From Escherichia phage Ioannina: a stretch of DNA of 45,270 nucleotides. Numbering within the stretch: the stretch's first letter is position 1; each line of letters opens with the position of its first letter. The notes below the pieces were generated by a model, which worked only from the letters and a program-made list of their open reading frames with translations, was not told the DNA's origin and ran no database searches. The stretch lies in sequence record OQ589852.1. One strand, given 5' to 3'. A program made the position numbers and the translations under genes. Shown here piece by piece: positions 5,811-43,780 of the stretch.

Positions 5811-5885
5811 TGCAACCAATATATTGCAACCAATTAGCCAATGCAAGCAAATTTTGTGATTATTTTTATCACTGATAATATTAAG
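5811..5885. promoter_or_regulatory. divergent promoter region with tandem TGCAACCAAT repeats
   Basis: Minus strand reads TTGCAT-N17-TATATT, overlapping two ATTGGTTGCA copies; plus strand has TTGTGA-N16-TAATAT upstream of the scaffold gene. Confidence 0.55.
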
Positions 5886-11115: not shown

Positions 11116-11429
11116 TTGAGGCGGCGCGACGCTTCTATGGTCCGCCGCCACCGTCCGAAGACCTTGCCGCTAGTTTATGGGGTGCGGCCCCCGAAGATAT
11201 TTGTCCGCCAGTTGCATTATGGCCTGATAACGTACAGGTCGTTGCCGTTTTCACTGACTGCTCAACGCAGTGGCGCACCGGTTTTAACGGCGCATACGGC
11301 ATCGACTACGGCGTGCTGGAATGGCTATTTAAAATGCACGGCATCGAAAATGAGAAGCGAGCTTTTAAAGATATCAAGTTAATGGAGCGTATTGCACTCG
11401 ACGAAATTGCAGCACAACAGGCCGGGTAA
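10753..11429 (+). CDS. tail assembly chaperone GT fusion (via -1 frameshift)
   Basis: G frame joined to the -1 frame at the slippery site; the extension is not the track ORF 11116..11382, which is in another frame. Confidence 0.5.
11106..11112 (+). other. -1 programmed ribosomal frameshift slippery site (A AAA AAC)
   Basis: Heptamer sits three codons before the G stop; the -1 frame beyond it stays open for about 105 codons of protein-like sequence (…AYGIDYGVLEWLFKMHGIENEKRAFKDIKLMERIALDEIAAQQAG) ending near 11429. Confidence 0.6.
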
Positions 11430-11440
11430 TTCCGGCCTTT

Positions 11441-11770
11441 TTCATAGCGGGACAGCGGGACGTCCCGTTTTTATCCCGCTGTCCCGCCCAGCCAAAAACT
11501 GCATACCTATTCAGAAATACTGCATAAAACCAAAACGGGACAAAAACGGGACAAGCAGGACGTCCCGCCTCAAAAGTGCATATCTATGCAGTTTTCGTGC
11601 ATAAAACGAACGGGACAAAAACGGGACAAATTGCAAGCGGGACAGAGCGGGACGTCCCGCCGTCCCTGCCAGAGCTGCCGCGGGTTTCAGCCGATCGGGA
11701 CAGGCGGGACAAAGCCCAGTCTTTCAGACTAGACGGGGGTCAATGGCCCCCTCCGTCTGAGACTGAATAA
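11441..11770. repeat. GGGACA iteron-like array plus conserved hairpin, copy 1
   Basis: At least ten CGGGACA/GCGGGACA units in both orientations, GGGACGTCCC palindromes, TGCATAAAAC boxes and the inverted repeat CAGTCTTTCAGACTAGACGGGGG…CCCCCTCCGTCTGAGACTG; about 180 bp nearly identical to 40205-40380. Confidence 0.8.
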
Positions 11771-11832
11771 GGTTGGTTGCAAAATGACTGATACAATACA
11801 AACGGCAACTTGCATAAAAAGGGGACTGCATA

Positions 11833-21935: not shown

Positions 21936-21975
21936 CTTAAATATAGTGCAACCAATACGTGATTGCAACCAATTT
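21936..21975 (-). promoter_or_regulatory. early-type promoter (TTGCAA-N17-TATATT) with tandem ATTGGTTGCA repeats
   Basis: Read on the minus strand: ATTGGTTGCAATCACGTATTGGTTGCACTATATT; drives the lipoprotein cassette. Confidence 0.55.
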
Positions 21976-21991: not shown

Positions 21992-24016
21992 ATGGCAGCG
22001 GGTACACTTAACGTAACAAACAACAGCAAGGCCGTAACGGGGTCGGGCACGACGTTTACGTCATTGAAAGCGGGCGACTTTTTATCGCTGGTGGTGGGGC
22101 AAGTCCCGTACACCGTCGCGATTGAGTCAATCCAGAGCAACACGGCGCTTACGCTGGCGCTGCCGTTTGACGGCCCAACGTCTACCGGTCTGGCGTGGGA
22201 CTCCGTATCCCGCGATACGATGTCGCTGGCGACTATGGGTGTGACCGTACAGGCGCAGAAAGCGCTACGCATGTTGATTGCTGACGAAAGCAACTGGCGA
22301 GCAATCTTCGGCGACGCAGAGCAAATCAGCGTGACACTGCCAAACGGCACGGTTATGCAGGGTATGTCGTGGGGCTATTTGTCCAGCCTTCTAAAAGACG
22401 TCGATCCGGTTGAGCTTCAGAATATTGCCAACCAGGCGGTTAACGCTAAAAACCAGGCTGTAACGGCGAAGAACGACGCCGTGTCTGCTAAGAACGATGC
22501 GCAGACTGCGAAGACTGCCGCAGAAACAGCGCGCACACAGGCCCAGTCGGCTAAGACCGCCGCAGAGTCAGCACGTGACGACGCGCAGACGGCTAAGACT
22601 GCCGCAGAAACAGCACGCACCCAGGCACAGACCGCGAAGACCGCCGCAGAAACCGCCCAGGGTGCGGCGGAAGACGCCCGCGATGAGGCGAAGCAATATG
22701 CAGAGCAAGCCGGAGCACCATATAAGCAGGTATTACAACCGCTACCAGACGTGTGGGTTCCGTTTAACGATTCGCTGGATATGCTCGCAGGCTTCGCGCC
22801 AGGATACAAGACGGTTACGGTAGCCGACGACGAGGTTATTATGCCTAGCGACAAGGTGGTGTCGTTCAAGCGCGCATCAACGGCAACATATATTAACAAG
22901 TCCGGCGAGTTTAAAATCGCAGATATTGACGAGCCGCGGTTCGAGAAATACGGCCTGCTTATCGAAGGCCAGCGCACTAACCACATCACCAACGGGGGCG
23001 CTCCGGCTGCCTGGGGCCGCAGCACATCGGTTGGAGTGGTTACGGGTACAGATGATTTCGGTTTCTTGTATGGAAAGTTTGGTATCGGCCAGGGCGACGT
23101 GGGCAGTACGACTGCGCGTAACCTGGCTTCCGTAACATCAGTAAACAGTCTGGATACTTCCGGCGACGATAAGTATGTAACGGCGTCATGCCGCTTTCGG
23201 TCCGACAAGGATGTACGTCTTCGTGTGCGTTTTGCAGAAGGCGCGGATCAAGGCAGCATAGCTTTCTCTGGCGACGCGTACATTAAATTAAGCGATTTGT
23301 CCGTGTCTAAGACGGGTGTCGCGGCAGACCGCATTACCGTAGAAGTAGAGAAAGACGAAGCCACCGGATGGAATCGTGCGGTGGTAATGCTGCAAGCTAC
23401 CACGGCGCTGGTGAACGCGCAGATCCAGATCTCGCCAGTGAGCAGTTATGCTGCCGGTGATTATATCGAACTGGCAACTCCGCAGGTTGAGTTAGGGATC
23501 GGGGCGTCTTCATATATAATCTCCGGAACATCTCCAACCACACGCGCCAGCGATATGGTGACGGTACCGGCTAACCGCAACCTGTATAACCTGCCGTTTA
23601 CGGTGCTTGTAGAAGCGCACAAGAACTGGTCTAAGGCGCCGAACGCAGCGCCGCGTGTATTCGACACCGGCGGTAATCAATCGGGTGCGGCTATTATCCT
23701 TGGATTCGGGTCTGGCGCTATTGACGGGTATCCGTACTGCAACATCGGCAGTGCTAACGGACGTGTGAGTGAAAACGCAGGGCTTAAGCATATGGTTATG
23801 GGTATGCGTGTGAAAGAAAACCAGAACACTTGCGCGGTGAGTAACGGCACTCTTTCGACCGAATCTAAAACCACATGGACCTACCTGCAAGGGTCTGCAA
23901 CGCTGCGAATCGGCGGGCAGACCACGAACGGAGACAGACACCTGTTCGGGCACGTCCGTAACTTCCGTATCTGGCATAAAGCACTGACCGACTTACAAAT
24001 GGGAGAATTAGTATGA
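21992..24016 (+). CDS. tail fiber protein
   Basis: 674 aa; fiber-type N-terminal module, Ala/Lys/Thr/Gln coiled-coil repeats (AKTAAETARTQAQ x4-5), beta-rich C-terminal domain. Confidence 0.75.
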   Translation: MAAGTLNVTNNSKAVTGSGTTFTSLKAGDFLSLVVGQVPYTVAIESIQSNTALTLALPFDGPTSTGLAWDSVSRDTMSLATMGVTVQAQKALRMLIADESNWRAIFGDAEQISVTLPNGTVMQGMSWGYLSSLLKDVDPVELQNIANQAVNAKNQAVTAKNDAVSAKNDAQTAKTAAETARTQAQSAKTAAESARDDAQTAKTAAETARTQAQTAKTAAETAQGAAEDARDEAKQYAEQAGAPYKQVLQPLPDVWVPFNDSLDMLAGFAPGYKTVTVADDEVIMPSDKVVSFKRASTATYINKSGEFKIADIDEPRFEKYGLLIEGQRTNHITNGGAPAAWGRSTSVGVVTGTDDFGFLYGKFGIGQGDVGSTTARNLASVTSVNSLDTSGDDKYVTASCRFRSDKDVRLRVRFAEGADQGSIAFSGDAYIKLSDLSVSKTGVAADRITVEVEKDEATGWNRAVVMLQATTALVNAQIQISPVSSYAAGDYIELATPQVELGIGASSYIISGTSPTTRASDMVTVPANRNLYNLPFTVLVEAHKNWSKAPNAAPRVFDTGGNQSGAAIILGFGSGAIDGYPYCNIGSANGRVSENAGLKHMVMGMRVKENQNTCAVSNGTLSTESKTTWTYLQGSATLRIGGQTTNGDRHLFGHVRNFRIWHKALTDLQMGELV

Positions 24017-26321: not shown

Positions 26322-26356
26322 GTTAATATAGTGCAACCAACCTATTGGTTGCAAGT
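26322..26356 (-). promoter_or_regulatory. early-type promoter containing perfect palindrome TGCAACCAA-N4-TTGGTTGCA
   Basis: Minus strand reads TTGCAA-N18-TATATT; the palindrome looks like a dimer operator. Confidence 0.55.
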
Positions 26357-27997: not shown

Positions 27998-28032
27998 CCA
28001 ATATAATGCAACCAATCTCGCAATGCAACCAA
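27998..28032 (-). promoter_or_regulatory. early-type promoter (TTGCAT-N17-TATATT) with tandem ATTGGTTGCA repeats
   Basis: Minus strand: ATTGGTTGCATTGCGAGATTGGTTGCATTATATT. Confidence 0.55.
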
Positions 28033-28033
28033 T

Positions 28034-30967: not shown

Positions 30968-31246
30968 TTATGCGACCAATTCCGCAACCAATAAATCAGC
31001 GTCGTGAATGTTGTCGATTACGCGAACGTCGGCCCCGCGCTTCGCCATGCGCTCATGTTCACGTACCTGGTGCGGCTTCGGCTTACCACCGGGGCGCTTC
31101 ACTTCAACGAATACGACTCTGCCGTTGATGATGATAATCAGGTCGGGAGCGCCGGTACGCCCTTCCCATGCCATTTTACGGCAGAATCCACCTGCCTCTT
31201 TTACCTCTTTCATCAGGTGACTTTGCATCTTGCCCTCAGGAGTCAT
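30968..31246 (-). CDS. VRR-NUC domain nuclease
   Basis: 92 aa; GAPDLIIIINGRVVFVEVKRPGG is a PD-(D/E)xK core of VRR-NUC type. Confidence 0.65.
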   Translation of the reverse strand: MTPEGKMQSHLMKEVKEAGGFCRKMAWEGRTGAPDLIIIINGRVVFVEVKRPGGKPKPHQVREHERMAKRGADVRVIDNIHDADLLVAELVA

Positions 31247-33709: not shown

Positions 33710-34482
33710 TTAGCGGCGTCGACGTTTACGTGGTGCTTCGTCTTCGTCATCATCGTCATCTTCATCGCGTGACTTGCGACGTTTACGCGGCTTATCGTCT
33801 TCATCGTCGTCATCTTCATCACGGCGGCGCTTAGACTTGCGCGGTTTTTCATCTTCATCATCGTCGTCACGACGTTTTGACTTTTTGGATTTACGCGGTG
33901 CTTCGTCTTCGTCATCATCCAGGTCGTCGTCAGAGCAATATGCACCGCGCCGCCACCGAAGGAATCCCCATCATCACGGAAGCGCATACCCAGCAGACCA
34001 CAGCCTAAGCCTTTGCCGTTGGTATTGTTCCAGGCCCAAATATCTAAGGAAACGTTGCAATAGCAACCGGAATAGATTTCCTTCCCTTCGATTTCGTCGC
34101 CGTCGATGGTCAGACCCTGCTCCGTCTGCTTCTCGCCTTCGGAAGTCTGGATGATCGGCTGTTTGAATGATTTAGCGTTGATATACAGCTTACCTTCAAA
34201 CTCTTCCGTTACTTCTTCACGCTCATCACCATCTCGAACGGCACATTCTTTCGAATCCTGCGCGTAGTGGCGGTCCATCCACTTATCGGCGTTCTTCTCA
34301 GACTTCAGTTTTTCGGTGAGCACTGCGCGTGCCGCCGCTTCCACTTTGTCCACCTGCGGATCTTCTTTATCAAGAATAATCACCGCACGATATGCCGGTT
34401 TTTGTCCATCCTGTTTAGGGGTATCACGCTCCCAAATTTTCAGGAAGCATACACGTACATTTTTCAGGTTGACTTTAGCCAT
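33710..34482 (-). CDS. ssDNA-binding protein with tandem acidic/basic C-terminal repeats; two halves in different frames
   Basis: N-terminal domain from MAKVNLKNVRVCF (GAGGA RBS) is open in one frame; the C-terminal tail (four DDDDEDE-PRK-KRR units) is open only in the -1 frame and ends at 33710 ahead of the terminator. Confidence 0.5.
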
Positions 34483-34578
34483 TTTCCAATTCCTCATTTC
34501 ACATGTATCGGGGTTATTAGAAGCCACCCCGTCCGGCTTGGTTGCTAATGTACTTGGTTGCGTTTCCGCGGTCAAGTG

Positions 34579-36722: not shown

Positions 36723-37225
36723 TTAGTCTTCCAGTTCGAAATAGGTTTCGACTATTTCTTTCAGTTCGGTGTGGAAGTCTTCAACGTCGTCATCTTCCAG
36801 CTTAGCCACAGTCTTGATTTCGAACGATTCCAGCAGGTCGTCAAATTCGTCGTTCGCGTCGTCATCGTCACCGCCTGCAATGATTGCCGCGTATTGTGCA
36901 ATTTCATCGCGCATTTCTTTCAGTGGATCGGCGTCTTTCTTAGCCTTCACTTTGCCCTTGCCTTTGGCTGGCTTTTCTTCCGGTTCGTCTTCGTCGTCGT
37001 CATCTTCTACGACTTCTTTTTTCGCCTTGCCCTTAGCCGTGGACTTCTTAGCAGGTTTCTTATCTTCCTGCTCGTTATCTTCGTCTTTGGCTTCTTCTTT
37101 CTTAGCCTTAGACGGTTTCTTATCTTCCTGCTTACCAACGGCAGCGCCCTGGGTTTCGTAATGTTTAGCGATGGTTTCCAGTGCTACTACGCCGCGAGTA
37201 ATCAGATTCAGGATTTGCTCAAACA
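36723..37225 (-). CDS. first early protein, highly charged low-complexity with very acidic C-terminus
   Basis: About 167 aa from MFEQILNL; lysine-rich blocks alternating with DDDDEDE-type blocks; promoter-proximal in the early operon. Confidence 0.45.
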
Positions 37226-37269
37226 TGGTGTGTCTCCGTTTAGTTAAAAGTGAATGTCGTTTCGACGAG

Positions 37270-37305
37270 GTGAATAATAGATTGGTTGCAGGATGGGTGT
37301 CAACA
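37270..37305 (-). promoter_or_regulatory. leftward early promoter (TTGACA-N18-TATTAT)
   Basis: Consensus -35 hexamer on the minus strand, with a TGCAACCAAT copy in the spacer. Confidence 0.6.
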
Positions 37306-37414
37306 ACTAATTTAAAAAAAAAATCCCCGAAGCAAAACGCAACGGGGATAACCATAAGAGACAATGAGACTGGTTTTATTATTACACGCGCGCGCACCCG
37401 TTTCAATATACAAA

Positions 37415-37450
37415 ACAGTTGACACCGGTTTAATTTGGGTGTAGTTTCTT
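37415..37450 (+). promoter_or_regulatory. rightward promoter for the HTH regulator and primase operon (TTGACA-N17-TAGTTT)
   Basis: Plus-strand TTGACA about 55 nt upstream of the ATG; GGTGTCAAC…GTTGACACC inverted repeats flank the divergent region. Confidence 0.5.
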
Positions 37451-37477
37451 TGGTCATTAACCAACAGGAGACGGATT

Positions 37478-37807
37478 ATGAATATCAACGAAGCAATTGA
37501 AGTGTTATCTAATGCAATCCGCGGCGAGACGGGTAAATCCTGGTATTACACGAATGCGGTGGGTACTCTGCTATTTGAGGTGTCCCGATTATCGCGTGTC
37601 GAGAAAGAGCTTACCGCCAAACTTGAATTGCTGAACGGTACGGCGGCGAGCAAGCTGCAAAAGCATAACGAAGAAATGGAAGAATACAAAAAGCAGGTTA
37701 TCAGACTGCGTGAAGAAGGTAAGTCCTGGGCGATGATTGCCGAGTTAACGGGTATTAATCAGAGCACCGTTCGTTCTTGGGTCCGCAATACTAAAACTGC
37801 TAAGTAA
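37478..37807 (+). CDS. HTH DNA-binding regulator
   Basis: 109 aa; C-terminal helix-turn-helix (SWAMIAELTGINQSTVRSWV); first gene of the rightward operon beside the divergent promoters. Confidence 0.6.
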   Translation: MNINEAIEVLSNAIRGETGKSWYYTNAVGTLLFEVSRLSRVEKELTAKLELLNGTAASKLQKHNEEMEEYKKQVIRLREEGKSWAMIAELTGINQSTVRSWVRNTKTAK

Positions 37808-37819
37808 GGAATTGAGACA

Positions 37820-40084
37820 ATGAGAAATATAGAATTTGCGATCACACCCCCCGCTAAGAAAGGCGAATCTGCGGTAGCTCATAACCAGTCCATGACTACC
37901 GCCGAGTTTTTCGAATTTATCCAGGATGCACCGGTAGTGTCGTCAGTTTGCATTAACGGTACTGAAGATAAAAAAGAATATGCGCGACGTAAGCGTAAAG
38001 GCGACGGCATTGTGGCTACAACCGCCGATGGCACGCGTAAAAAGACTGGCGTGGTTAGCCGCTCGATCCTGTTCTTCGACCTGGACCGTGCTGACAACCG
38101 CACACTTACCCGCTGCCGCAGGGCTTTCCGCAAGTCCGGCCTGGAATATGTCTACCACACCACCACCGGCGACCGCCACCCGTTGAAAGACGGCAAGCGC
38201 TGTGTGCGTTTCCTGGTGCTGACAAACAAGCCAGTTCCGGCGGAAGACTTGGGTCGCGCGCAGGCTGCACTGCTTGAGCAACTGGGTCTTACCGACGCGG
38301 GCTTTGATGACTGCTCGAAAGACACAAACCGCCTTATGTACCTGCCCCACCAGCAGGCTAAGGTCGAGTGTCATGAGGGTGAACGCGCTAACGTGCGTCG
38401 TCTGCTTCGCCTGGCTGACAAGATGGGTATTGAGCAGGAAACGTTTCGCCGTGAACTGGTGCAGGGCGACGACGAGCAGATGAACGGCATCCTCGACTGG
38501 TGTTTCCAGGCTGGTTTTGAGCCGTTACCATCCGGGCGCGGTTATGAAGTACCGTGCCCAAACGAACATCTGCACTCTGGTGAAGGGTCTACCGCTATCA
38601 TGCTTAAGGATGGCGAGATTCGTTTCAAATGTATGCACACCGGCAACGGATGCTGTTCTGAACTGAACAAACACCAACACCTGGCGCTGCGAATGATTGG
38701 TATCCCGGATATTTATAACGTGGAACCTCACAACATGTCGCGCAAACAGATCTCGGCAATCCTGCCCGGACTGGACGATGAAGAAGTGGACGCGCAGTAT
38801 GAGCACATGGTCGATCTGGTTGGCGAAGGTGAGGATTATGCGTCCTGTACTGACGCAGACCTGGAAGACGAACCAACGGCACTGTTCTCTAAACACGACC
38901 CGATCATCGAAGGTCTGATTAACTTCAAATCGACCTGGTACGCAGCGGGTGAGTCGAACATTGGTAAGTCCTTCTTCGTCCTGGGTCAGATGGCTGCCGT
39001 TGCCGCTGGCATCCCGTTCGGCGGCGCTAAGGTCGTCCAGTCCCATTGCTTCTACTTCGATGCGGAAGGTGGCGAGGCGTCCCACCAGCGTAAAGAAGCG
39101 TTGCAGATTAAATATGAGCACGACCTGGACAAGCTGCACATTATCGACCTTCAGGCACGCGGCTGGGATATTACGAGCAAATCCGGCCTGCGTGAAGTCA
39201 TCAGCTTTATCAACCGCACAGCGGATGGGGAACCGGTCGGCCTGGTGGCGTTCGACTCCCTTAACCAGACCGTGGCCCTGCGCTCGGCAGATGCCAAACC
39301 GTTCGACGAGAACAACGCAAGCGATATGGGTGAGATTGTCAAAGCGCTGAAGTCCATTGCGGAAAACACAGGCGGCAGTGCGGGCGTCATCCACCACCCG
39401 GCGAAGGGTGCAAACGGCAGCCGATCCCCGCGTGGGTCCGGTGCGCTACATGGCGCGGTGGATTCTGCATTCTTCCTGGAACAGCCAGACGAGAATCAGC
39501 CAGGCCAGCTTAACCTCTATCATGAGAAAGCCCGTAACGGCGTGAAACAGGGTCCGCGCGGCTTCGTGCTACTGAAGTGCAAAGTGTCCATTAACGAGCG
39601 CAAGTCCGACACGTTCGAAGCGCACCAGTCCACTAACCCTGGTCCAGACTTCGGCGATGTGGTTGCCGGTTGGGACGTCAAGCCAATCCAGGCCACCCCG
39701 CGTGATGAGACTCTGTACCTTGTACCGGTAGCTCTGGTCCCGTTCGCTATCGAACAGGCGAAGGCCGCGGGCAAGCAGGCTGTTAAGGAAGAAAACCCCG
39801 CCGGTCCGCGCAATGAAAAAGAGAAAGTGCTTTACGCAGCGCTCGAAGCGTTGATGGAAGAGAATCCGGGACACCATGGCTTCAGCAAATCGGCAATCGT
39901 CCGCAAAGCCGGACTGGCGAAAGGTGGCACATCGACGAAGCCAATAGACGATATGCGTGAGCGCGGAATAATCGGCTTTTACAAAGACCCGGACACCGGG
40001 GCCATTTACGGGTCGTCGAATCTGGTTATCAATTCACAAATACCTATGCAATTGACGGCGACGGATGATGATTTGAAAGATTAA
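37820..40084 (+). CDS. DNA primase / replicative helicase (bifunctional)
   Basis: 754 aa; N-terminal primase-like domain (FFDLDRADN), Cys/His cluster (CPNEHLHSGEG…CMHTGNGCC), C-terminal RecA/DnaB-like ATPase with Walker A GESNIGKS. Confidence 0.75.
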   Translation: MRNIEFAITPPAKKGESAVAHNQSMTTAEFFEFIQDAPVVSSVCINGTEDKKEYARRKRKGDGIVATTADGTRKKTGVVSRSILFFDLDRADNRTLTRCRRAFRKSGLEYVYHTTTGDRHPLKDGKRCVRFLVLTNKPVPAEDLGRAQAALLEQLGLTDAGFDDCSKDTNRLMYLPHQQAKVECHEGERANVRRLLRLADKMGIEQETFRRELVQGDDEQMNGILDWCFQAGFEPLPSGRGYEVPCPNEHLHSGEGSTAIMLKDGEIRFKCMHTGNGCCSELNKHQHLALRMIGIPDIYNVEPHNMSRKQISAILPGLDDEEVDAQYEHMVDLVGEGEDYASCTDADLEDEPTALFSKHDPIIEGLINFKSTWYAAGESNIGKSFFVLGQMAAVAAGIPFGGAKVVQSHCFYFDAEGGEASHQRKEALQIKYEHDLDKLHIIDLQARGWDITSKSGLREVISFINRTADGEPVGLVAFDSLNQTVALRSADAKPFDENNASDMGEIVKALKSIAENTGGSAGVIHHPAKGANGSRSPRGSGALHGAVDSAFFLEQPDENQPGQLNLYHEKARNGVKQGPRGFVLLKCKVSINERKSDTFEAHQSTNPGPDFGDVVAGWDVKPIQATPRDETLYLVPVALVPFAIEQAKAAGKQAVKEENPAGPRNEKEKVLYAALEALMEENPGHHGFSKSAIVRKAGLAKGGTSTKPIDDMRERGIIGFYKDPDTGAIYGSSNLVINSQIPMQLTATDDDLKD

Positions 40085-40087
40085 ATT

Positions 40088-40175
40088 TTGCGCGCATTGG
40101 TTGCCAATATGGTTAATTTGTGCGCGCATTGGTTGCCGGATTGAGCATTAAATTCATATCGTATTGGTTGCCGTG
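40088..40175. repeat. three direct repeats of (GCGCGC)ATTGGTTGCC spaced about 34 bp
   Basis: Immediately downstream of the primase-helicase stop. Confidence 0.7.
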
Positions 40176-40204
40176 TAGTGTTAAAGAAGTGAATAATTAT
40201 GCAA

Positions 40205-40380
40205 AATACGTGCATAAAACAAACGGGACAAAAACGGGACAAACGGCAAGCGGGACAAAGCGGGACGTCCCGTCGTCCCCGTCAGTCGTGGCGCGGGTTT
40301 GAGGCAAACGGGACAAGCGGGACAGACCACAGTCTTTCAGACTAGACGGGGGGTATTGTCCCCCCTCCGTCTGAGACTGC
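40205..40380. repeat. GGGACA iteron-like array plus conserved hairpin, copy 2
   Basis: Collinear with 11591-11770 (TGCATAAAAC, ACGGGACAAAAACGGGACAA, GCGGGACA-AGCGGGACGTCCCG, CGCGGGTTT, hairpin CAGTCTTTCAGACTAGACGGGGGG…CCCCCCTCCGTCTGAGACTG). Confidence 0.8.
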
Positions 40381-40529
40381 ATAAAATCTCTGGTTGCATA
40401 ATCAACGGCAGCATAGTGAAAAATGCGGCGGGGGTAGATCTCGGCAACCAATGCGAGTTGAAGAGTGGAGAGTGAAAAATGCAGTTTGCAATTGCAACTC
40501 ATAGCGATCAGCATTTTCATGCGCGTGAT

Positions 40530-40575
40530 TAATATTGGTTGCATCCAGCCTGGCACCTTGCTATATTGGTTGCAC
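40530..40575 (+). promoter_or_regulatory. early-type promoter (TTGCAT-N17-TATATT) with ATTGGTTGCA repeats
   Basis: Plus strand: ATTGGTTGCATCCAGCCTGGCACCTTGCTATATTGGTTGCAC, about 30 nt upstream of the ATG at 40596. Confidence 0.55.
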
Positions 40576-40595
40576 ACCAACATGAGGACTGAACG

Positions 40596-40901
40596 ATGAG
40601 AGCATTAATCTGGAATTACACAATGGCTGTGGCGAAGCTGTACGAAGCGAAGCACACAAACGGCAACGCAGACGACGCGCGCCAGGCTGTCATCCTGGCC
40701 CAGCAGGGAATCATGAACGCGTTCGACAATATGTTTGCCAGCCTAGACGAACTGGAACCGCTGCGCGTGGCAATCTGCGAATATGCGATGGCATTTGCCC
40801 GTGAACGCCTGGCATACCGGTTTGGTATCGGGAAAACGGCAGTGGCTAACATCGCCCGCATTCAGGCCCAGCGTGAGCTGCACGCCATACTCGCGAAATA
40901 A
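40596..40901 (+). CDS. hypothetical protein
   Basis: 101 aa, alpha-helical; no motif. Confidence 0.4.
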   Translation: MRALIWNYTMAVAKLYEAKHTNGNADDARQAVILAQQGIMNAFDNMFASLDELEPLRVAICEYAMAFARERLAYRFGIGKTAVANIARIQAQRELHAILAK

Positions 40902-40910
40902 GGGGCCAAA

Positions 40911-41180
40911 ATGGCACGCAGACGCGCTCAATGGCTTTCATGGCACATTCCCCTACATAGCATCCGTTTATGGGCGCAGAACGCGATTGAGGGCGATTCT
41001 GTGTTCTGGAGCTATCGGGATGACGTCAAGCCGCTGACGCAGACCAGAAAGCTGCACCAGTTCATGAACGAACACGGACTGCCGGTGAAAACATCATTGC
41101 AACCAATCGGCATCCGTATTACATTACGCCGTAAGCCAATCGTTGAGCAGGTTGGCAAACACAGGAGACTGACAAAATGA
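40911..41180 (+). CDS. hypothetical protein
   Basis: 89 aa, basic. Confidence 0.35.
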   Translation: MARRRAQWLSWHIPLHSIRLWAQNAIEGDSVFWSYRDDVKPLTQTRKLHQFMNEHGLPVKTSLQPIGIRITLRRKPIVEQVGKHRRLTK

Positions 41181-43285: not shown

Positions 43286-43693
43286 ATGTTAAAAAGTATT
43301 CTTGATCATAATGCGGACGCGCTTGACGCGTTGGCTAAAACGGACGACGCTGGCGCGCGTCGCATCATTGCAAACACCATCAGCCATGCTGGGGTGTTTG
43401 GTGCAAGCCTTCCGGGGCCTAAGCCGGATGTGAAGGTGTCAAGCGCCACAGTAACGGTAACACCAGAGGAAGTTACAATCGGCACCAAGTCTAAGGCTAC
43501 GGTGGCGGTGCAACCGGCAGGGGCGACCGATAAATCCGGTGTGTGGATTAGTGGGTCGCCAACCATCGCCACCGTTGACGCTTCGGGTAATATCGACGGC
43601 AAAACTCCCGGTTCTGTCGATATTATTTGGGTGGCTAAGGATGGAAGCGGGGTGTCGGGCCGAAAAACGGTAACTGTGGCAAACGCCGAGTAA
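43286..43693 (+). CDS. bacterial Ig-like (Big_2-type) domain protein
   Basis: C-terminal 80 aa (ATVAVQPAGATDKSGVWISGSPTIATVDASGNIDGKTPGSVDIIWVAKDGSGVSGRKTVTV) is a typical Big_2 fold; no signal peptide. Confidence 0.55.
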   Translation: MLKSILDHNADALDALAKTDDAGARRIIANTISHAGVFGASLPGPKPDVKVSSATVTVTPEEVTIGTKSKATVAVQPAGATDKSGVWISGSPTIATVDASGNIDGKTPGSVDIIWVAKDGSGVSGRKTVTVANAE

Positions 43694-43697
43694 AGAG

Positions 43698-43728
43698 CAA
43701 GCCCGCAACTATGGCGGGCTTTTTATTG
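43698..43728 (+). terminator. rho-independent terminator
   Basis: AGCCCGC-AACTATG-GCGGGCT followed by TTTTTATT. Confidence 0.65.
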
Positions 43729-43780
43729 CTTGACTTGCAACCAATTAATAGCTCATACTTCTGTCGCCGTGGTATATTGA
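43728..43780 (+). promoter_or_regulatory. promoter region (TTGACT plus TGCAACCAAT; downstream TATATT)
   Basis: TTGACTTGCAACCAATTAATAGCTCATACT and a TATATT hexamer upstream of the ATG at 43812; exact -10 unresolved. Confidence 0.4.

What the first reader, a model, noticed from the sequence alone, without database searches (positions are those of the whole stretch)
40086..40595. Compound non-coding region downstream of primase-helicase: GCGCGCATTGGTTGCC triplet, second GGGACA module, promoter
Five hundred bp without coding capacity hold, in order, three direct repeats of GCGCGCATTGGTTGCC at about 34-bp spacing, the second GGGACA/TGCATAAAAC module, the conserved hairpin, and a TTGCAT-N17-TATATT promoter. 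Repeats stacked next to the primase-helicase gene are the classic layout of a phage replication origin; alternatively this is a regulatory hub.
Basis: partly seen in the sequence, partly recalled or inferred. Interest (0 to 1): 0.7.

Follow-up and report, generated by a model that had tools for sequence, protein, structure and literature searches.

The report
Probable phage replication origin with iterons
The gap after the primase-helicase gene of this E. coli phage most likely holds a replication origin, built from CGGGACA repeats matched to the enzyme's own DNA-binding tail, next to the late-gene promoter; it is a new variant of a known design and is untested.

Summary
The window is a complete Dhillonvirus (HK578/SO-1-like) genome.

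The elements are of two kinds.
- **ATTGGTTGC, core of the GCGCGCATTGGTTGCC triplet:** the commonest 9-mer in the genome (17 copies, 0.34 expected). It usually sits in pairs over sigma-70-like promoters, so it is a promoter/operator word, not an origin iteron.
- **CGGGACA array with AT-rich boxes and a long hairpin:** a 178-nt module also present upstream of the tape-measure gene (83% identical). Both copies are kept across the genus.

Phages whose primase-helicase is about 44% identical keep the same layout directly after the gene. Their 7-mer differs by lineage (GGGGAGA, CGGACAA, CCGACAA, AGGGATA, GGGGATR). The 7-mer follows the protein's C-terminal domain, modelled as a winged helix, even in three domain-swapped proteins. 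It does not follow the neighbouring HTH gene.

Best reading (about 0.55): an iteron origin for a self-loading primase-helicase, as in SaPI Rep, P4 alpha and pRN1 ORF904, with a second copy in Dhillonvirus and the late promoter alongside. The main rival is a late-transcription control element. Nothing has been tested biochemically.

The parts
39812..40084 (+). 3' end of the primase-helicase gene (37820-40084), encoding the C-terminal domain (residues ~665-754). This domain is the proposed iteron-binding winged helix.
   Evidence: AAA_25/RepA-like helicase core and phrog_3228. It is the most divergent part of the protein and tracks iteron type. The AF2 model has the order H1-H2-H3-beta-wing, core pLDDT 70-83. 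All top Foldseek hits are winged-helix proteins, but E >= 0.028.
40081..40172 (+). Three direct repeats TTAAWTTnnGCGCGCATTGGTTGCC at 40081-40105, 40113-40137 and 40148-40172. Proposed binding sites for a phage regulator, that is, an operator array.
   Evidence: family D6. The core ATTGGTTGC is a genome-wide motif. Relatives carry 1 to 3 copies. The copies are inverted in L007/L054.
40168..40197 (+). Candidate sigma-70 promoter TTGCCG-N18-AATAAT, reading into the module. It is weak and its use is not shown.
   Evidence: Promoter scan, 9 of 12 positions. GTGAATAGTTATGCA is conserved across the genus.
40189..40218 (+). Two GTGMATAA boxes 21 bp apart (GTGAATAAT at 40189-40197, GTGCATAAA at 40210-40218) inside the most AT-rich stretch, up to 77% A+T. 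Candidate host-factor site and unwinding region; by eye each box matches a DnaA box at 8 of 9 positions.
   Evidence: Sequence and AT profile. GTGAATAGTTATGCA is kept in lineages that have different iterons. The DnaA-box likeness is inference only.
40224..40324 (+). Iteron array. CGGGACA at 40224, 40235 and 40251; CGGGACG at 40261; inverted copies within 40265-40280 (palindrome GGGACGTCCC at 40262-40271); a spacer containing GCGGGTTTG; CGGGACA at 40309 and 40318.
   Evidence: Iterons are invariant while their spacers vary across the genus. The 7-mer is replaced in other lineages at the same positions.
40330..40378 (+). Conserved long imperfect hairpin. It has a small 5' hairpin (AGTCT-ttc-AGACT), a G/C apical stem with a variable loop, and a 3' flank (GAGACTG) that can pair with the 5' arm instead.
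   Evidence: Fold z = -4.6. The loop varies while the stems are kept. Other lineages have the same shape with different stem sequences.
40392..40452 (+). Conserved non-coding block (GGTTGCATAATCAACGGCAGCAT) followed by an inverted copy of the regulator word (GGCAACCAAT, 40443-40452).
   Evidence: ACACGGCA(A/G)CA is also kept in other genera.
40472..40533 (+). Highly conserved 60-nt block (GTGAAAAATGCAGTTTGCA...GCGCGTGATTAAT) just upstream of the late promoter. Function unknown.
   Evidence: Some GenBank records annotate a small ORF here, but the amino-acid sequence is not conserved across the promoter spacer and 1-nt indels occur.
40534..40598 (+). Late-operon promoter and leader: ATTGGTTGCA (40534-40543), -35 TTGCAT (40539-40544), 17-nt spacer, -10 TATATT (40562-40567), second ATTGGTTGCA (40565-40574), ACACCAACA, RBS GAGGA (40584-40588), ATG at 40596.
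   Evidence: Both hexamers and both motif copies are conserved, while the spacer varies in sequence but not in length. The same 21-nt TATATTGGTTGCACACCAACA recurs at 5812 on the minus strand. Holin and endolysin genes lie downstream.
11440..11766 (+). Second copy ('region A'), between the tail chaperone gene and the tape-measure gene: about one and a half extra iteron sets (11448-11570) plus the full module and hairpin (11574-11765).
   Evidence: (D2). Conserved in 14 Dhillonvirus loci. Annotated as a repeat region in Sodalis phage SO-1.

Best explanation
The gap 40086-40595 is a composite control region. Its core (about 40189-40378) is an iteron-type origin of replication for the phage's own primase-helicase.

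**Proposed mechanism**
1. The C-terminal winged-helix domain of the 754-aa primase-helicase recognises the CGGGACA 7-mers. The protein has a DxD-type primase N-terminus, a Cys/His zinc region and a RepA/DnaB-like AAA_25 helicase.
2. The 7-mers lie as direct repeats one helical turn (11 bp) apart, together with inverted copies.
3. Several subunits gather on the array, and the adjacent AT-rich box region melts.
4. The helicase loads itself, and the primase domain starts synthesis. The conserved long hairpin acts as the structural entry or priming site once the strands separate.

Dhillonviruses carry a second full copy upstream of the tape-measure gene. It is either a second origin or a cis partner like P4 crr.

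Around the core sit regulatory elements built on a different word, ATTGGTTGC. Three copies follow the gene's stop codon, one inverted copy lies at 40443, and two lie over the TTGCAT-N17-TATATT promoter of the lysis and structural operon. These are most likely operators for a phage regulator. gp45, an HTH protein encoded just upstream of the primase-helicase, is one candidate.

**Shown here:** the anatomy; conservation; the lineage-specific change of iteron; its association with the C-terminal domain; the predicted fold.
**Inferred:** binding, melting, loading, priming, the role of the hairpin, and the identity of the regulator.
For: 1. **Same layout in other genera.** Directly after the primase-helicase stop codon, phages with about 44% identical proteins have two boxes, 3 direct 7-mers, inverted 7-mers, a spacer, 2-3 more 7-mers, a small hairpin, a long G/C hairpin, then a promoter.
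2. **The 7-mer changes as a set between lineages.** CGGGACA, GGGGAGA, CGGACAA, CCGACAA, AGGGATA and GGGGATR each fill the same positions while the boxes and layout stay. This is the pattern expected of sites co-evolving with a specificity protein.
3. **Iteron type follows the C-terminal domain, not the rest of the protein.**
 - L062 and L086 are 95-98% identical in primase and helicase but 42% in the C-terminal domain, and their iterons differ.
 - L068 and L067: 98-99% against 51%, and their iterons differ.
 - L082 and L086: 89-93% against 51%, and their iterons differ.
 - Pairs with the same iteron share 65-84% in the C-terminal domain despite lower body identity.
4. **Neighbouring genes are excluded as the binder.** The upstream HTH protein is the same protein (only the last 1-3 residues differ) in L062, L082 and L086, which have three different iterons, and again in L067 (whose ORF is called from a later ATG), L068 and L084. 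The first downstream gene differs among CCGACA phages.
5. **Predicted fold.** The C-terminal domain models as a winged helix. Every top Foldseek hit is a winged-helix DNA binder: MarR, Fur, histone H1, ORC2, LexA.
6. **The iteron is confined to the two modules.** 14 of 18 CGGGACA lie there; the 4 outside are at chance level.
7. **Constraint is on the sites.** Within the genus the iterons are invariant while the spacers between them vary.
8. **The hairpin is thermodynamically unusual.** z = -4.6. Its shape is kept with different stem sequences in other lineages.
9. **Documented precedents.**
 - SaPI Rep/PriRep has a winged-helix C-terminal domain that binds 5-6-nt iterons lying immediately downstream of rep (PMC9371898).
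 - The pRN1 minimal replicon is a repressor gene, a primase-helicase gene and a stem-loop downstream of that gene (PMC4234260).
Against: - No experiment or read-depth data places the origin here, and no paper in the library maps a Dhillonvirus origin.
- The C-terminal coding DNA and the gap are physically adjacent. Their joint inheritance could reflect linkage alone.
- The fold matches are not statistically significant (best E = 0.028) and mean pLDDT is only 65.
- A group of relatives (L058-L061, L064, L069) has no iteron array directly after the gene.
- Both Dhillonvirus copies point the same way as late transcription and sit just upstream of late genes. That placement fits a transcriptional role equally well.
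- GC skew gives no signal here.
- No plasmid uses this protein as its replicon.
Confidence: 0.55

Rival explanations
1. Late-transcription control element. The module is transcribed, or bound on DNA by an activator, and governs expression of the late operon, like a nut/put/qut-type antitermination site or a leader RNA ending at the hairpin. The second copy re-arms transcription before the long tail genes.
For: - The gap lies at the junction between the replication operon and the lysis and structural operon.
- Both copies have the same orientation as late transcription, and each is followed by a conserved promoter-like element: TTGCAT-N17-TATATT here, and the invariant extended -10 TGATACAAT at 11789-11797.
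- A weak promoter reads into the module.
- The hairpin has two mutually exclusive pairings, as attenuators do.
- In other lineages the hairpin is followed by TTATTCATT.
Against: - The 7-mers occur in both orientations, in palindromic sets, which suits a duplex-DNA binder rather than a single-stranded RNA motif.
- Iteron type follows the primase-helicase C-terminal domain and not the HTH regulator.
- Dhillonviruses have no T-run after the hairpin, and the terminator scan finds nothing there.
- There is no Rfam match.
- vB_STM-ZS has an equally long late operon but only one module.
Confidence: 0.2
2. Binding array for the primase-helicase C-terminal domain (or another phage protein) with a role that is not initiation. 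Examples are autoregulation or titration of the replication protein, or handcuffing and genome pairing between the two copies.
For: - The association between the C-terminal domain and the iteron type says only that something binds.
- Inverted-repeat versions of iterons serve as operators in iteron plasmids (established knowledge).
- Two distant copies could pair, as P4 ori and crr do.
Against: - The array lies downstream, not upstream, of the gene it would regulate.
- The AT-rich boxes and the structure-conserved hairpin are not needed for simple titration.
Confidence: 0.12
3. Packaging (pac) recognition region for the terminase.
For: - Three GenBank records (PTXU06, Zar3M, BMA1) match the query only up to window position ~40490 at their very ends, and PTXU06 and BMA1 break at the same nucleotide inside this gap.
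- Dhillonviruses package by the headful mechanism (PMC9022532).
- Repeat arrays are typical of pac sites.
Against: - The site is 4.7 kb upstream of the small terminase gene.
- The break point is 110 bp beyond the module.
- PTXU06 is from the DSMZ phage survey and Zar3M carries the same naming pattern, so they may share a source, and BMA1 may have been rotated to match them (my inference). These may not be independent observations.
- The layout is tied to the primase-helicase gene across genera and follows its C-terminal domain.
Confidence: 0.04

Closest known systems
SaPI replication module (Rep / fused PriRep5 and its ori) of Staphylococcus aureus pathogenicity islands
   Same: - The initiator is itself the helicase, in SaPI5 fused to a primase.
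- A C-terminal winged-helix domain reads short (5-6 nt) iterons.
- 6-12 iterons lie immediately downstream of the ORF, in both orientations, with an AT-rich region.
- Specificity differs between elements (PMC9371898).
   Different: - The SaPI helicase is of the AAA+/SF3-related type. Here it is a RecA-type AAA_25/RepA-like core.
- In SaPIs the AT-rich region is central. Here it flanks the array.
- SaPIs have no long structure-conserved hairpin and no second copy.
- Binding is demonstrated for SaPIs and not here.
Satellite phage P4: alpha protein with ori and crr
   Same: - One polypeptide combines primase, helicase and a C-terminal winged-helix origin-binding domain.
- Two separated clusters of short repeats act in cis, one of them next to the alpha gene (from my own knowledge; references listed).
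   Different: - P4 alpha has an SF3 helicase, and its iteron is TGTTCACC.
- A profile of the C-terminal domain found no P4 alpha chain among solved structures.
- Whether the second Dhillonvirus copy is required in cis is unknown.
pRN1 (Sulfolobus plasmid) minimal replicon: orf56 repressor, ORF904 primase-helicase, downstream stem-loop origin
   Same: - Gene order: a small DNA-binding protein gene, then a multidomain primase-helicase gene with a winged helix, then a long stem-loop downstream of that gene.
- The integrity of that stem-loop is needed for replication.
- The authors note the same plan in some phages (PMC4234260).
   Different: - pRN1 is archaeal, with an SF3 helicase and a 100-nt stem-loop.
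- No iteron array has been described for it.
- The phages named there are the Bordetella BPP-1 group, not these.
IncQ plasmids (RSF1010/R1162): oriV with RepA, RepB' and RepC
   Same: - The helicase family is RepA-like.
- The origin combines iterons, an AT-rich segment and hairpin-forming priming sites.
- The replicon supplies its own primase, helicase and iteron binder (from my own knowledge).
   Different: - IncQ uses three separate proteins; here there is one polypeptide.
- IncQ iterons are 20 bp, not 7.
- The profile match to RSF1010 RepA (1G8Y) is not significant (E = 0.43).
Bacillus phage SPP1 oriL / oriR
   Same: Two distant origin-like regions with the same repeated boxes and an AT-rich segment, one of them among late genes, in a 44-kb pac siphophage (from my own knowledge).
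   Different: The binder, G38P, is a separate replisome organiser and not the helicase. There is no sequence relation.

Membership tests
Iteron origin of a self-loading initiator-helicase (SaPI Rep / P4 alpha / pRN1 type) | Multiple short repeats immediately downstream of the initiator ORF | tested here: met
   Eight CGGGAC(A/G) sites (direct and inverted) plus a degenerate inverted copy lie within 40224-40324, starting 140 bp after the stop codon. The same holds in other genera.
Iteron origin of a self-loading initiator-helicase (SaPI Rep / P4 alpha / pRN1 type) | Repeats in both orientations with an AT-rich, easily melted segment | tested here: inconclusive
   Direct and inverted copies are present. 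The AT-rich stretch (up to 77% A+T, 40181-40210) flanks the array rather than splitting it. Melting was not tested.
Iteron origin of a self-loading initiator-helicase (SaPI Rep / P4 alpha / pRN1 type) | Initiator carries a winged-helix origin-binding domain | tested here: inconclusive
   The AF2 model has winged-helix topology, core pLDDT 70-83, mean 65. All top Foldseek hits are winged-helix proteins, but the best E is 0.028. No Pfam family matches.
Iteron origin of a self-loading initiator-helicase (SaPI Rep / P4 alpha / pRN1 type) | Repeat sequence matches the specificity of the initiator's binding domain | tested here: met
   This is a correlation only. Six iteron types each pair with a distinct C-terminal domain, including three domain-swapped proteins. 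The HTH neighbour is excluded. Physical linkage is a caveat.
Iteron origin of a self-loading initiator-helicase (SaPI Rep / P4 alpha / pRN1 type) | The region supports replication in cis and is bound by the initiator | not testable with these tools
   Needs a plasmid replication assay, EMSA or footprinting, or marker-frequency sequencing.
Iteron origin of a self-loading initiator-helicase (SaPI Rep / P4 alpha / pRN1 type) | Helicase of the SF3/AAA+ class, as in SaPI Rep, P4 alpha and ORF904 | tested here: not met
   The core is Pfam AAA_25 (RecA-type, RepA/DnaB-like), E = 3e-21. The region works like this family but is not a sequence member of it.
   It matches 8 of 12 consensus positions, below the scan threshold. 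Both hexamers are invariant across relatives, and the 17-nt spacer keeps its length while its sequence varies. The same design recurs at five other gene starts. Transcription itself was not tested.
Intrinsic (Rho-independent) terminator, for the conserved hairpin | G+C-rich stem followed by a run of T | tested here: not met
   The stem is present, but it is followed by GAGACTGCATAAAATC. The scan finds no terminator at 40330-40390 on either strand.
Any described RNA family (Rfam 15) | Covariance-model match | tested here: not met
   The whole window was scanned at E <= 1. The only hit is a weak Trp-leader match at 43622-43727, and nothing falls in the gap.
Protein-coding gene in the gap (some records annotate a 54-aa ORF) | Reading frame conserved among relatives | tested here: not met
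   ORFs differ between relatives, and three relatives have none of 40 aa or more. Non-3n indels and non-synonymous variation occur in the promoter spacer.

The most novel reading that the evidence does not exclude
The module has two jobs. The primase-helicase loads at the CGGGACA array and moves into the adjacent late operon, so that replication initiation itself switches on, or keeps open, late transcription. This would resemble the replication-coupled late transcription of T4. It would explain why Dhillonviruses placed a second full copy, in the same orientation, in the middle of the late operon just ahead of the tape-measure gene.

The exchangeable cassette of C-terminal domain plus iterons would then set both the replication specificity and the late-gene specificity of these virulent phages.
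Probability: 0.1. Interest if true: 0.8.

Novelty: new variant of a known kind. Interest (0 to 1): 0.5.

Why it matters
Dhillonviruses and their Guernseyvirinae-like relatives are common coliphages and Salmonella phages, and they are used in phage-therapy collections. In the papers I could search, no origin of replication has been mapped for them.

If this reading holds:
- It gives a precise, testable origin for a whole group of virulent siphophages.
- It shows that one protein can be primase, helicase and origin reader with a RecA-type helicase. The known examples of that plan use SF3 helicases.
- It reveals a swappable cassette of binding domain plus iterons that resets replication specificity between near-identical enzymes. 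That matters for co-infection, for exploitation by satellites, and for engineering.
- It flags a second origin copy inside the tail operon as an unexplained genus-specific addition.

If the reading is wrong, the region is still the control point for the late operon.

Tried and rejected
- **Rfam, whole window:** nothing in the gap.
- **GC skew:** the turning points follow gene strand, so it is uninformative.
- **Terminator reading of the hairpin:** no T-run follows it.
- **Coding reading of the gap:** the ORFs are not conserved.
- **GGGAC depleted outside the modules:** 41 against 73 expected under a first-order model, but 46 under a third-order model, so there is no real depletion.
- **ACGGCA(A/G)CA as a third genome-wide signal:** it is simply a common word in coding sequence.
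- **Upstream HTH protein as the iteron binder:** rejected, because the same HTH protein accompanies three different iterons.
- **A plasmid replicon using this protein:** the only full-length plasmid hit is a 44-kb record whose primase-helicase is 34% identical, the same level as kagunavirus phages such as RP180. I take it to be a phage genome (not checked), so it is uninformative.
- **Sequence search of solved structures:** the full protein gives no hit. A profile gives only RSF1010 RepA at E = 0.43.
- **TALE-like BurrH match:** E = 9e-26 overall, but it is the sum of about 20 repeats scoring 11 bits or less each. I treat it as a curiosity.
- **Literature:** no origin mapping, transcript map or mention of either motif for Dhillonviruses.
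- **MAFFT/RNAalifold across lineages:** it aligned the 3' half of the hairpin poorly and supports only the small 5' hairpin, with 3 pairs showing compensatory change. The rest rests on per-sequence folds.
Full report
**Context.** The window is a complete genome of a Dhillonvirus, an HK578/SO-1-like virulent siphophage of E. coli. The tested 1-kb stretch around the gap is 97% identical to Dhillonvirus LM40P1 and about 76-81% identical to most other members listed.

Genes run rightward from about 37.5 kb through the end of the window and on through terminase, head and tail genes to 20.7 kb. Replication genes lie on the minus strand between 25 and 37.4 kb.

The finding is the gap between two units:
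- the primase-helicase gene (37820-40084; AAA_25/RepA-like helicase core, phrog_3228 'replicative helicase-primase');
- a run of small genes that includes the holin (42236) and endolysin (42791) and continues into terminase.

So the gap separates the replication operon from the late operon.

**Observation.**
- GCGCGCATTGGTTGCC occurs twice exactly, at 40090 and 40122. A third copy, at 40157-40172, keeps only ATTGGTTGCC. Spacings are 32 and 35 bp.
- Five CGGGACA sites and the palindrome GGGACGTCCC are present.
- A 178-nt stretch is 83% identical to 11574-11751.
- A hairpin at 40330-40378 folds far better than shuffles, z = -4.6.
- TTGCAT-N17-TATATT lies at 40539-40567.

The gap does contain mechanical ORFs, including a 128-aa one on the minus strand. 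None is conserved among relatives.

**Two different repeat systems.** ATTGGTTGC, the core of the 'triplet', is the most frequent 9-mer in the genome: 17 copies against 0.34 expected, 11 of them outside the two repeat regions.

Read in context, most copies come in pairs laid over sigma-70-like promoters just upstream of gene starts. One copy supplies the -35 (TTGCAA or TTGCAT). The second fills the spacer or overlaps the -10 TATATT. This design occurs at 5812/5826, 21948/21965, 26333/26345, 28008/28025 and 30984 on the minus strand, and at 40534/40565 on the plus strand.

At the start of this gap the word behaves like a protein-binding site:
- It is followed by C rather than A.
- Only the third copy has a plausible -10 (TTGCCG-N18-AATAAT).
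- Relatives carry 1 to 3 copies.
- In one relative (one IMG/VR contig, held as L007 and L054) two copies sit there inverted.

This is how an operator behaves, not a replication iteron. Which protein binds is unknown. gp45 (37478-37807), an HTH protein with sigma-70 region-4-like matches, is encoded just upstream of the primase-helicase and is a candidate.

**The CGGGACA module.** The module consists of:
- two GTGMATAA boxes 21 bp apart in the most AT-rich part of the gap;
- three CGGGACA at 11- and 16-bp steps;
- a palindromic pair;
- a spacer containing GCGGGTTTG;
- two more CGGGACA;
- the long hairpin.

A search of IMG/VR with a 20-mer from the hairpin returned 29 loci from 16 Dhillonvirus contigs, most contigs giving both copies. 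That search forces those 20 bases to be invariant, so their conservation is not independent evidence. Outside them, the 7-mers are invariant while the spacers between them and the hairpin loop vary freely.

The second copy lies in a roughly 390-bp non-coding stretch between the tail chaperone gene and the tape-measure gene. That stretch also carries about one and a half extra iteron sets.

The GenBank record of Sodalis phage SO-1 already marks both places as 'region A' and 'region B', made of direct, inverted and palindromic repeats and similar to each other. I found no functional study.

**Comparison beyond the genus.** This was the decisive analysis. Phages whose primase-helicase is about 44% identical have the same order of parts directly after the stop codon. 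They are Salmonella phage vB_STM-ZS and a dozen IMG/VR contigs.

| Lineage | 7-mer |
|---|---|
| Dhillonvirus (window, L054) | CGGGACA |
| L034 / L057 / L086 | GGGGAGA |
| L062 / L063 / L065 / L067 | CGGACAA |
| L068 / L070 / L082 | CCGACAA (CCGACAG in L070) |
| L071 | AGGGATA |
| L084 | GGGGATR |

The boxes (GTGAATAGTTATGCA), the spacer motif, ACACGGCAaCA and the overall plan stay. A set of sites that all change together is what a co-evolving specificity protein produces.

The C-terminal ~90 residues of the primase-helicase are its most divergent part, and they partition exactly with iteron type. Three proteins are natural domain swaps:

| Pair | Identity in primase and helicase | Identity in C-terminal domain | Iterons |
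|---|---|---|---|
| L062 vs L086 | 95-98% | 42% | differ |
| L068 vs L067 | 98-99% | 51% | differ |
| L082 vs L086 | 89-93% | 51% | differ |
| Same-iteron pairs | 75-85% | 65-84% | same |

The same HTH protein, differing only in its last 1-3 residues, accompanies three different iterons, and this happens twice over. The first downstream gene varies among phages with the same iteron.

The caveat is linkage. The C-terminal coding DNA touches the gap, so one recombination event moves both.

vB_STM-ZS has a single module, with 7 of its 11 GGGGAGA in that gap and none near its tape-measure gene. The tail-side copy is therefore a Dhillonvirus addition.

**The C-terminal domain.**
- An AlphaFold2 model from 18 sequences gives helix, helix-turn-helix, then a beta wing. 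Core pLDDT is 70-83 and the mean is 65.
- All leading Foldseek matches in the PDB are winged-helix DNA binders (MarR, Fur, linker histone, ORC2, LexA). None is significant; the best E is 0.028.
- Sub-threshold Pfam hits point the same way: Ribosomal_S25, Linker_histone and RPA_C. That these three are winged-helix folds is my own knowledge.

I rate the fold as likely, not proven.

**The hairpin.** In every lineage the array is followed by a small hairpin, then a long G/C-rich hairpin. The 3' flank can pair with the 5' arm of the small hairpin, so two pairings compete.
- The stems differ in sequence between lineages: AGTCT/AGACT, CATC/GATG, CCTC/GAGG, CTCCT/AGGAG. The shape is kept.
- An automatic alignment confirms compensatory changes only for the small hairpin.
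- In several lineages the apical part contains an inverted copy of that lineage's own iteron.
- Both strands fold equally well, so the data do not say whether the structure forms in RNA or in unwound DNA.
- It is not an intrinsic terminator in Dhillonviruses.

**The promoter.** TTGCAT-N17-TATATT matches only 8 of 12 consensus positions. Across relatives both hexamers and both flanking ATTGGTTGCA words are fixed, while the 17-nt spacer changes in sequence but never in length. The 21 bases TATATTGGTTGCACACCAACA recur at another gene start. It is a credible promoter for the late operon. The small ORF that some records annotate across it is not supported.

**Model.** The most likely reading is an origin of replication served by a self-loading primase-helicase.
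1. The winged-helix tail reads the 7-mers.
2. Subunits accumulate on the direct and inverted sites.
3. The AT-rich box region opens.
4. The helicase ring closes on single-stranded DNA and the primase domain starts synthesis, with the hairpin as a structural entry or priming signal.

The boxes are conserved across lineages with different iterons. They should therefore be read by something conserved, possibly a host factor. By eye they match a DnaA box at 8 of 9 positions, but this is only a lead.

The ATTGGTTGC sites on both flanks and the late promoter make the gap a combined replication and transcription control point. Steps 1-4 are inferred. What is shown is the anatomy, its conservation and the association between the C-terminal domain and the iteron type.

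**Rivals.**
- **Transcriptional element (0.2).** It is favoured by position and orientation. It is weakened by sites in both orientations, the link to the primase-helicase rather than to the regulator, and the lack of a second copy in vB_STM-ZS.
- **Non-initiating binding array (0.12).** Autoregulation or pairing of the two copies cannot be excluded.
- **pac site (0.04).** It rests only on three GenBank records that break inside the gap, in a genus that packages by the headful mechanism.

**Relation to known systems.** In design this matches three systems:
- SaPI Rep/PriRep, with its ori immediately downstream of rep;
- P4 alpha, with ori and crr;
- the pRN1 replicon, made of a repressor gene, a primase-helicase gene and a downstream stem-loop.

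It is not a sequence member of those families. The helicase is RecA-type AAA_25 rather than SF3, and no solved relative was found. I classify it as a new variant of a known kind, with moderate interest. The cassette-like exchange of binding domain plus iterons and the second copy inside the tail operon are the parts a specialist would want to follow up.

Noticed in passing
window 5812-5834, 21948-21973, 26333-26352, 28008-28033, 30984-31010, 34538-34561, 37281-37289, 41099-41107, 43737-43745: ATTGGTTGC(A) is a genome-wide word, usually in pairs 14-17 bp apart laid over TTGCAx-N17-TATATT promoters at gene starts. It looks like a phage-specific promoter/operator code. In vB_STM-ZS the equivalent word, GTTGGCTGC, has just three copies, all in or beside the gap after the primase-helicase gene.
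   Followed up: partly
window 11440-11832: About 390 bp of conserved non-coding DNA lies in the middle of the tail operon. It has extra iteron sets (11448-11570) and an invariant extended -10 element, TGATACAAT (11789-11797), about 35 bp upstream of the tape-measure start codon. The intrinsic terminator at 11419-11438 is present only in this lineage.
   Followed up: partly
L062, L068, L082 (IMG/VR loci), primase-helicase genes: These are natural chimeras. Primase and helicase parts are 89-99% identical to one group, while the C-terminal domain (42-51% identical) comes from another. The junction lies just before the predicted winged helix.
   Followed up: yes
window ~40490; records NC_073064.1, NC_073065.1, PQ178821.1: The PTXU06 and BMA1 records end with ...GTTTGCAGATT and start with CAGCAGATAGCG, so they break at the same nucleotide inside this gap. 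Zar3M's match also ends at its last bases, at the same query position; its sequence was not read. This may be an assembly or orientation convention, or a real end.
   Followed up: partly
window 39950-40040 (protein residues ~711-740): The stretch GFSKSAIVRKAGLAKGG resembles the first helix and loop of the TALE-like repeats of BurrH (4CJ9). The summed E-value is 9e-26, but each of the ~20 repeat matches scores 11 bits or less, so it may be convergence on a helix-loop-helix with a GG loop.
   Followed up: partly
L058-L061, L064, L069 (IMG/VR loci): This group of relatives has a C-terminal domain reading GPGGGRRPALK and no iteron array after the gene; a terminator and oppositely oriented genes follow instead. 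L069 has a degenerate version about 1.5 kb downstream, with six tandem GGCAGCAT.
   Followed up: partly
window 22464-22673: Four to five tandem 42-nt repeats lie inside the 674-aa ORF at 21992-24016, probably a tail fibre gene (not checked). They probably encode a 14-residue repeat (D1).
   Followed up: no
window 33725-33934 and 36847-37013: Repeated TCGTCATCATC-type tracts lie in minus-strand genes. One is the N-terminal part of the Enc34-like ssDNA-binding protein; the other is the 244-aa ORF at 36723-37457. They encode acidic Asp/Glu-rich repeats (D3/D4).
   Followed up: no
window 43622-43727: The only Rfam match is a weak Trp-leader hit (29.6 bits against a threshold of 41). It lies at a terminator-like hairpin in the gap after the Ig-domain gene, next to an ATTGGTTGC copy. 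It is most likely just a terminator.
   Followed up: no
window 40197-40583, minus strand: A 128-aa ORF spans most of the gap on the minus strand. It is intact only here and in the closest relative (133 aa) and broken everywhere else, so it is a chance ORF.
   Followed up: yes
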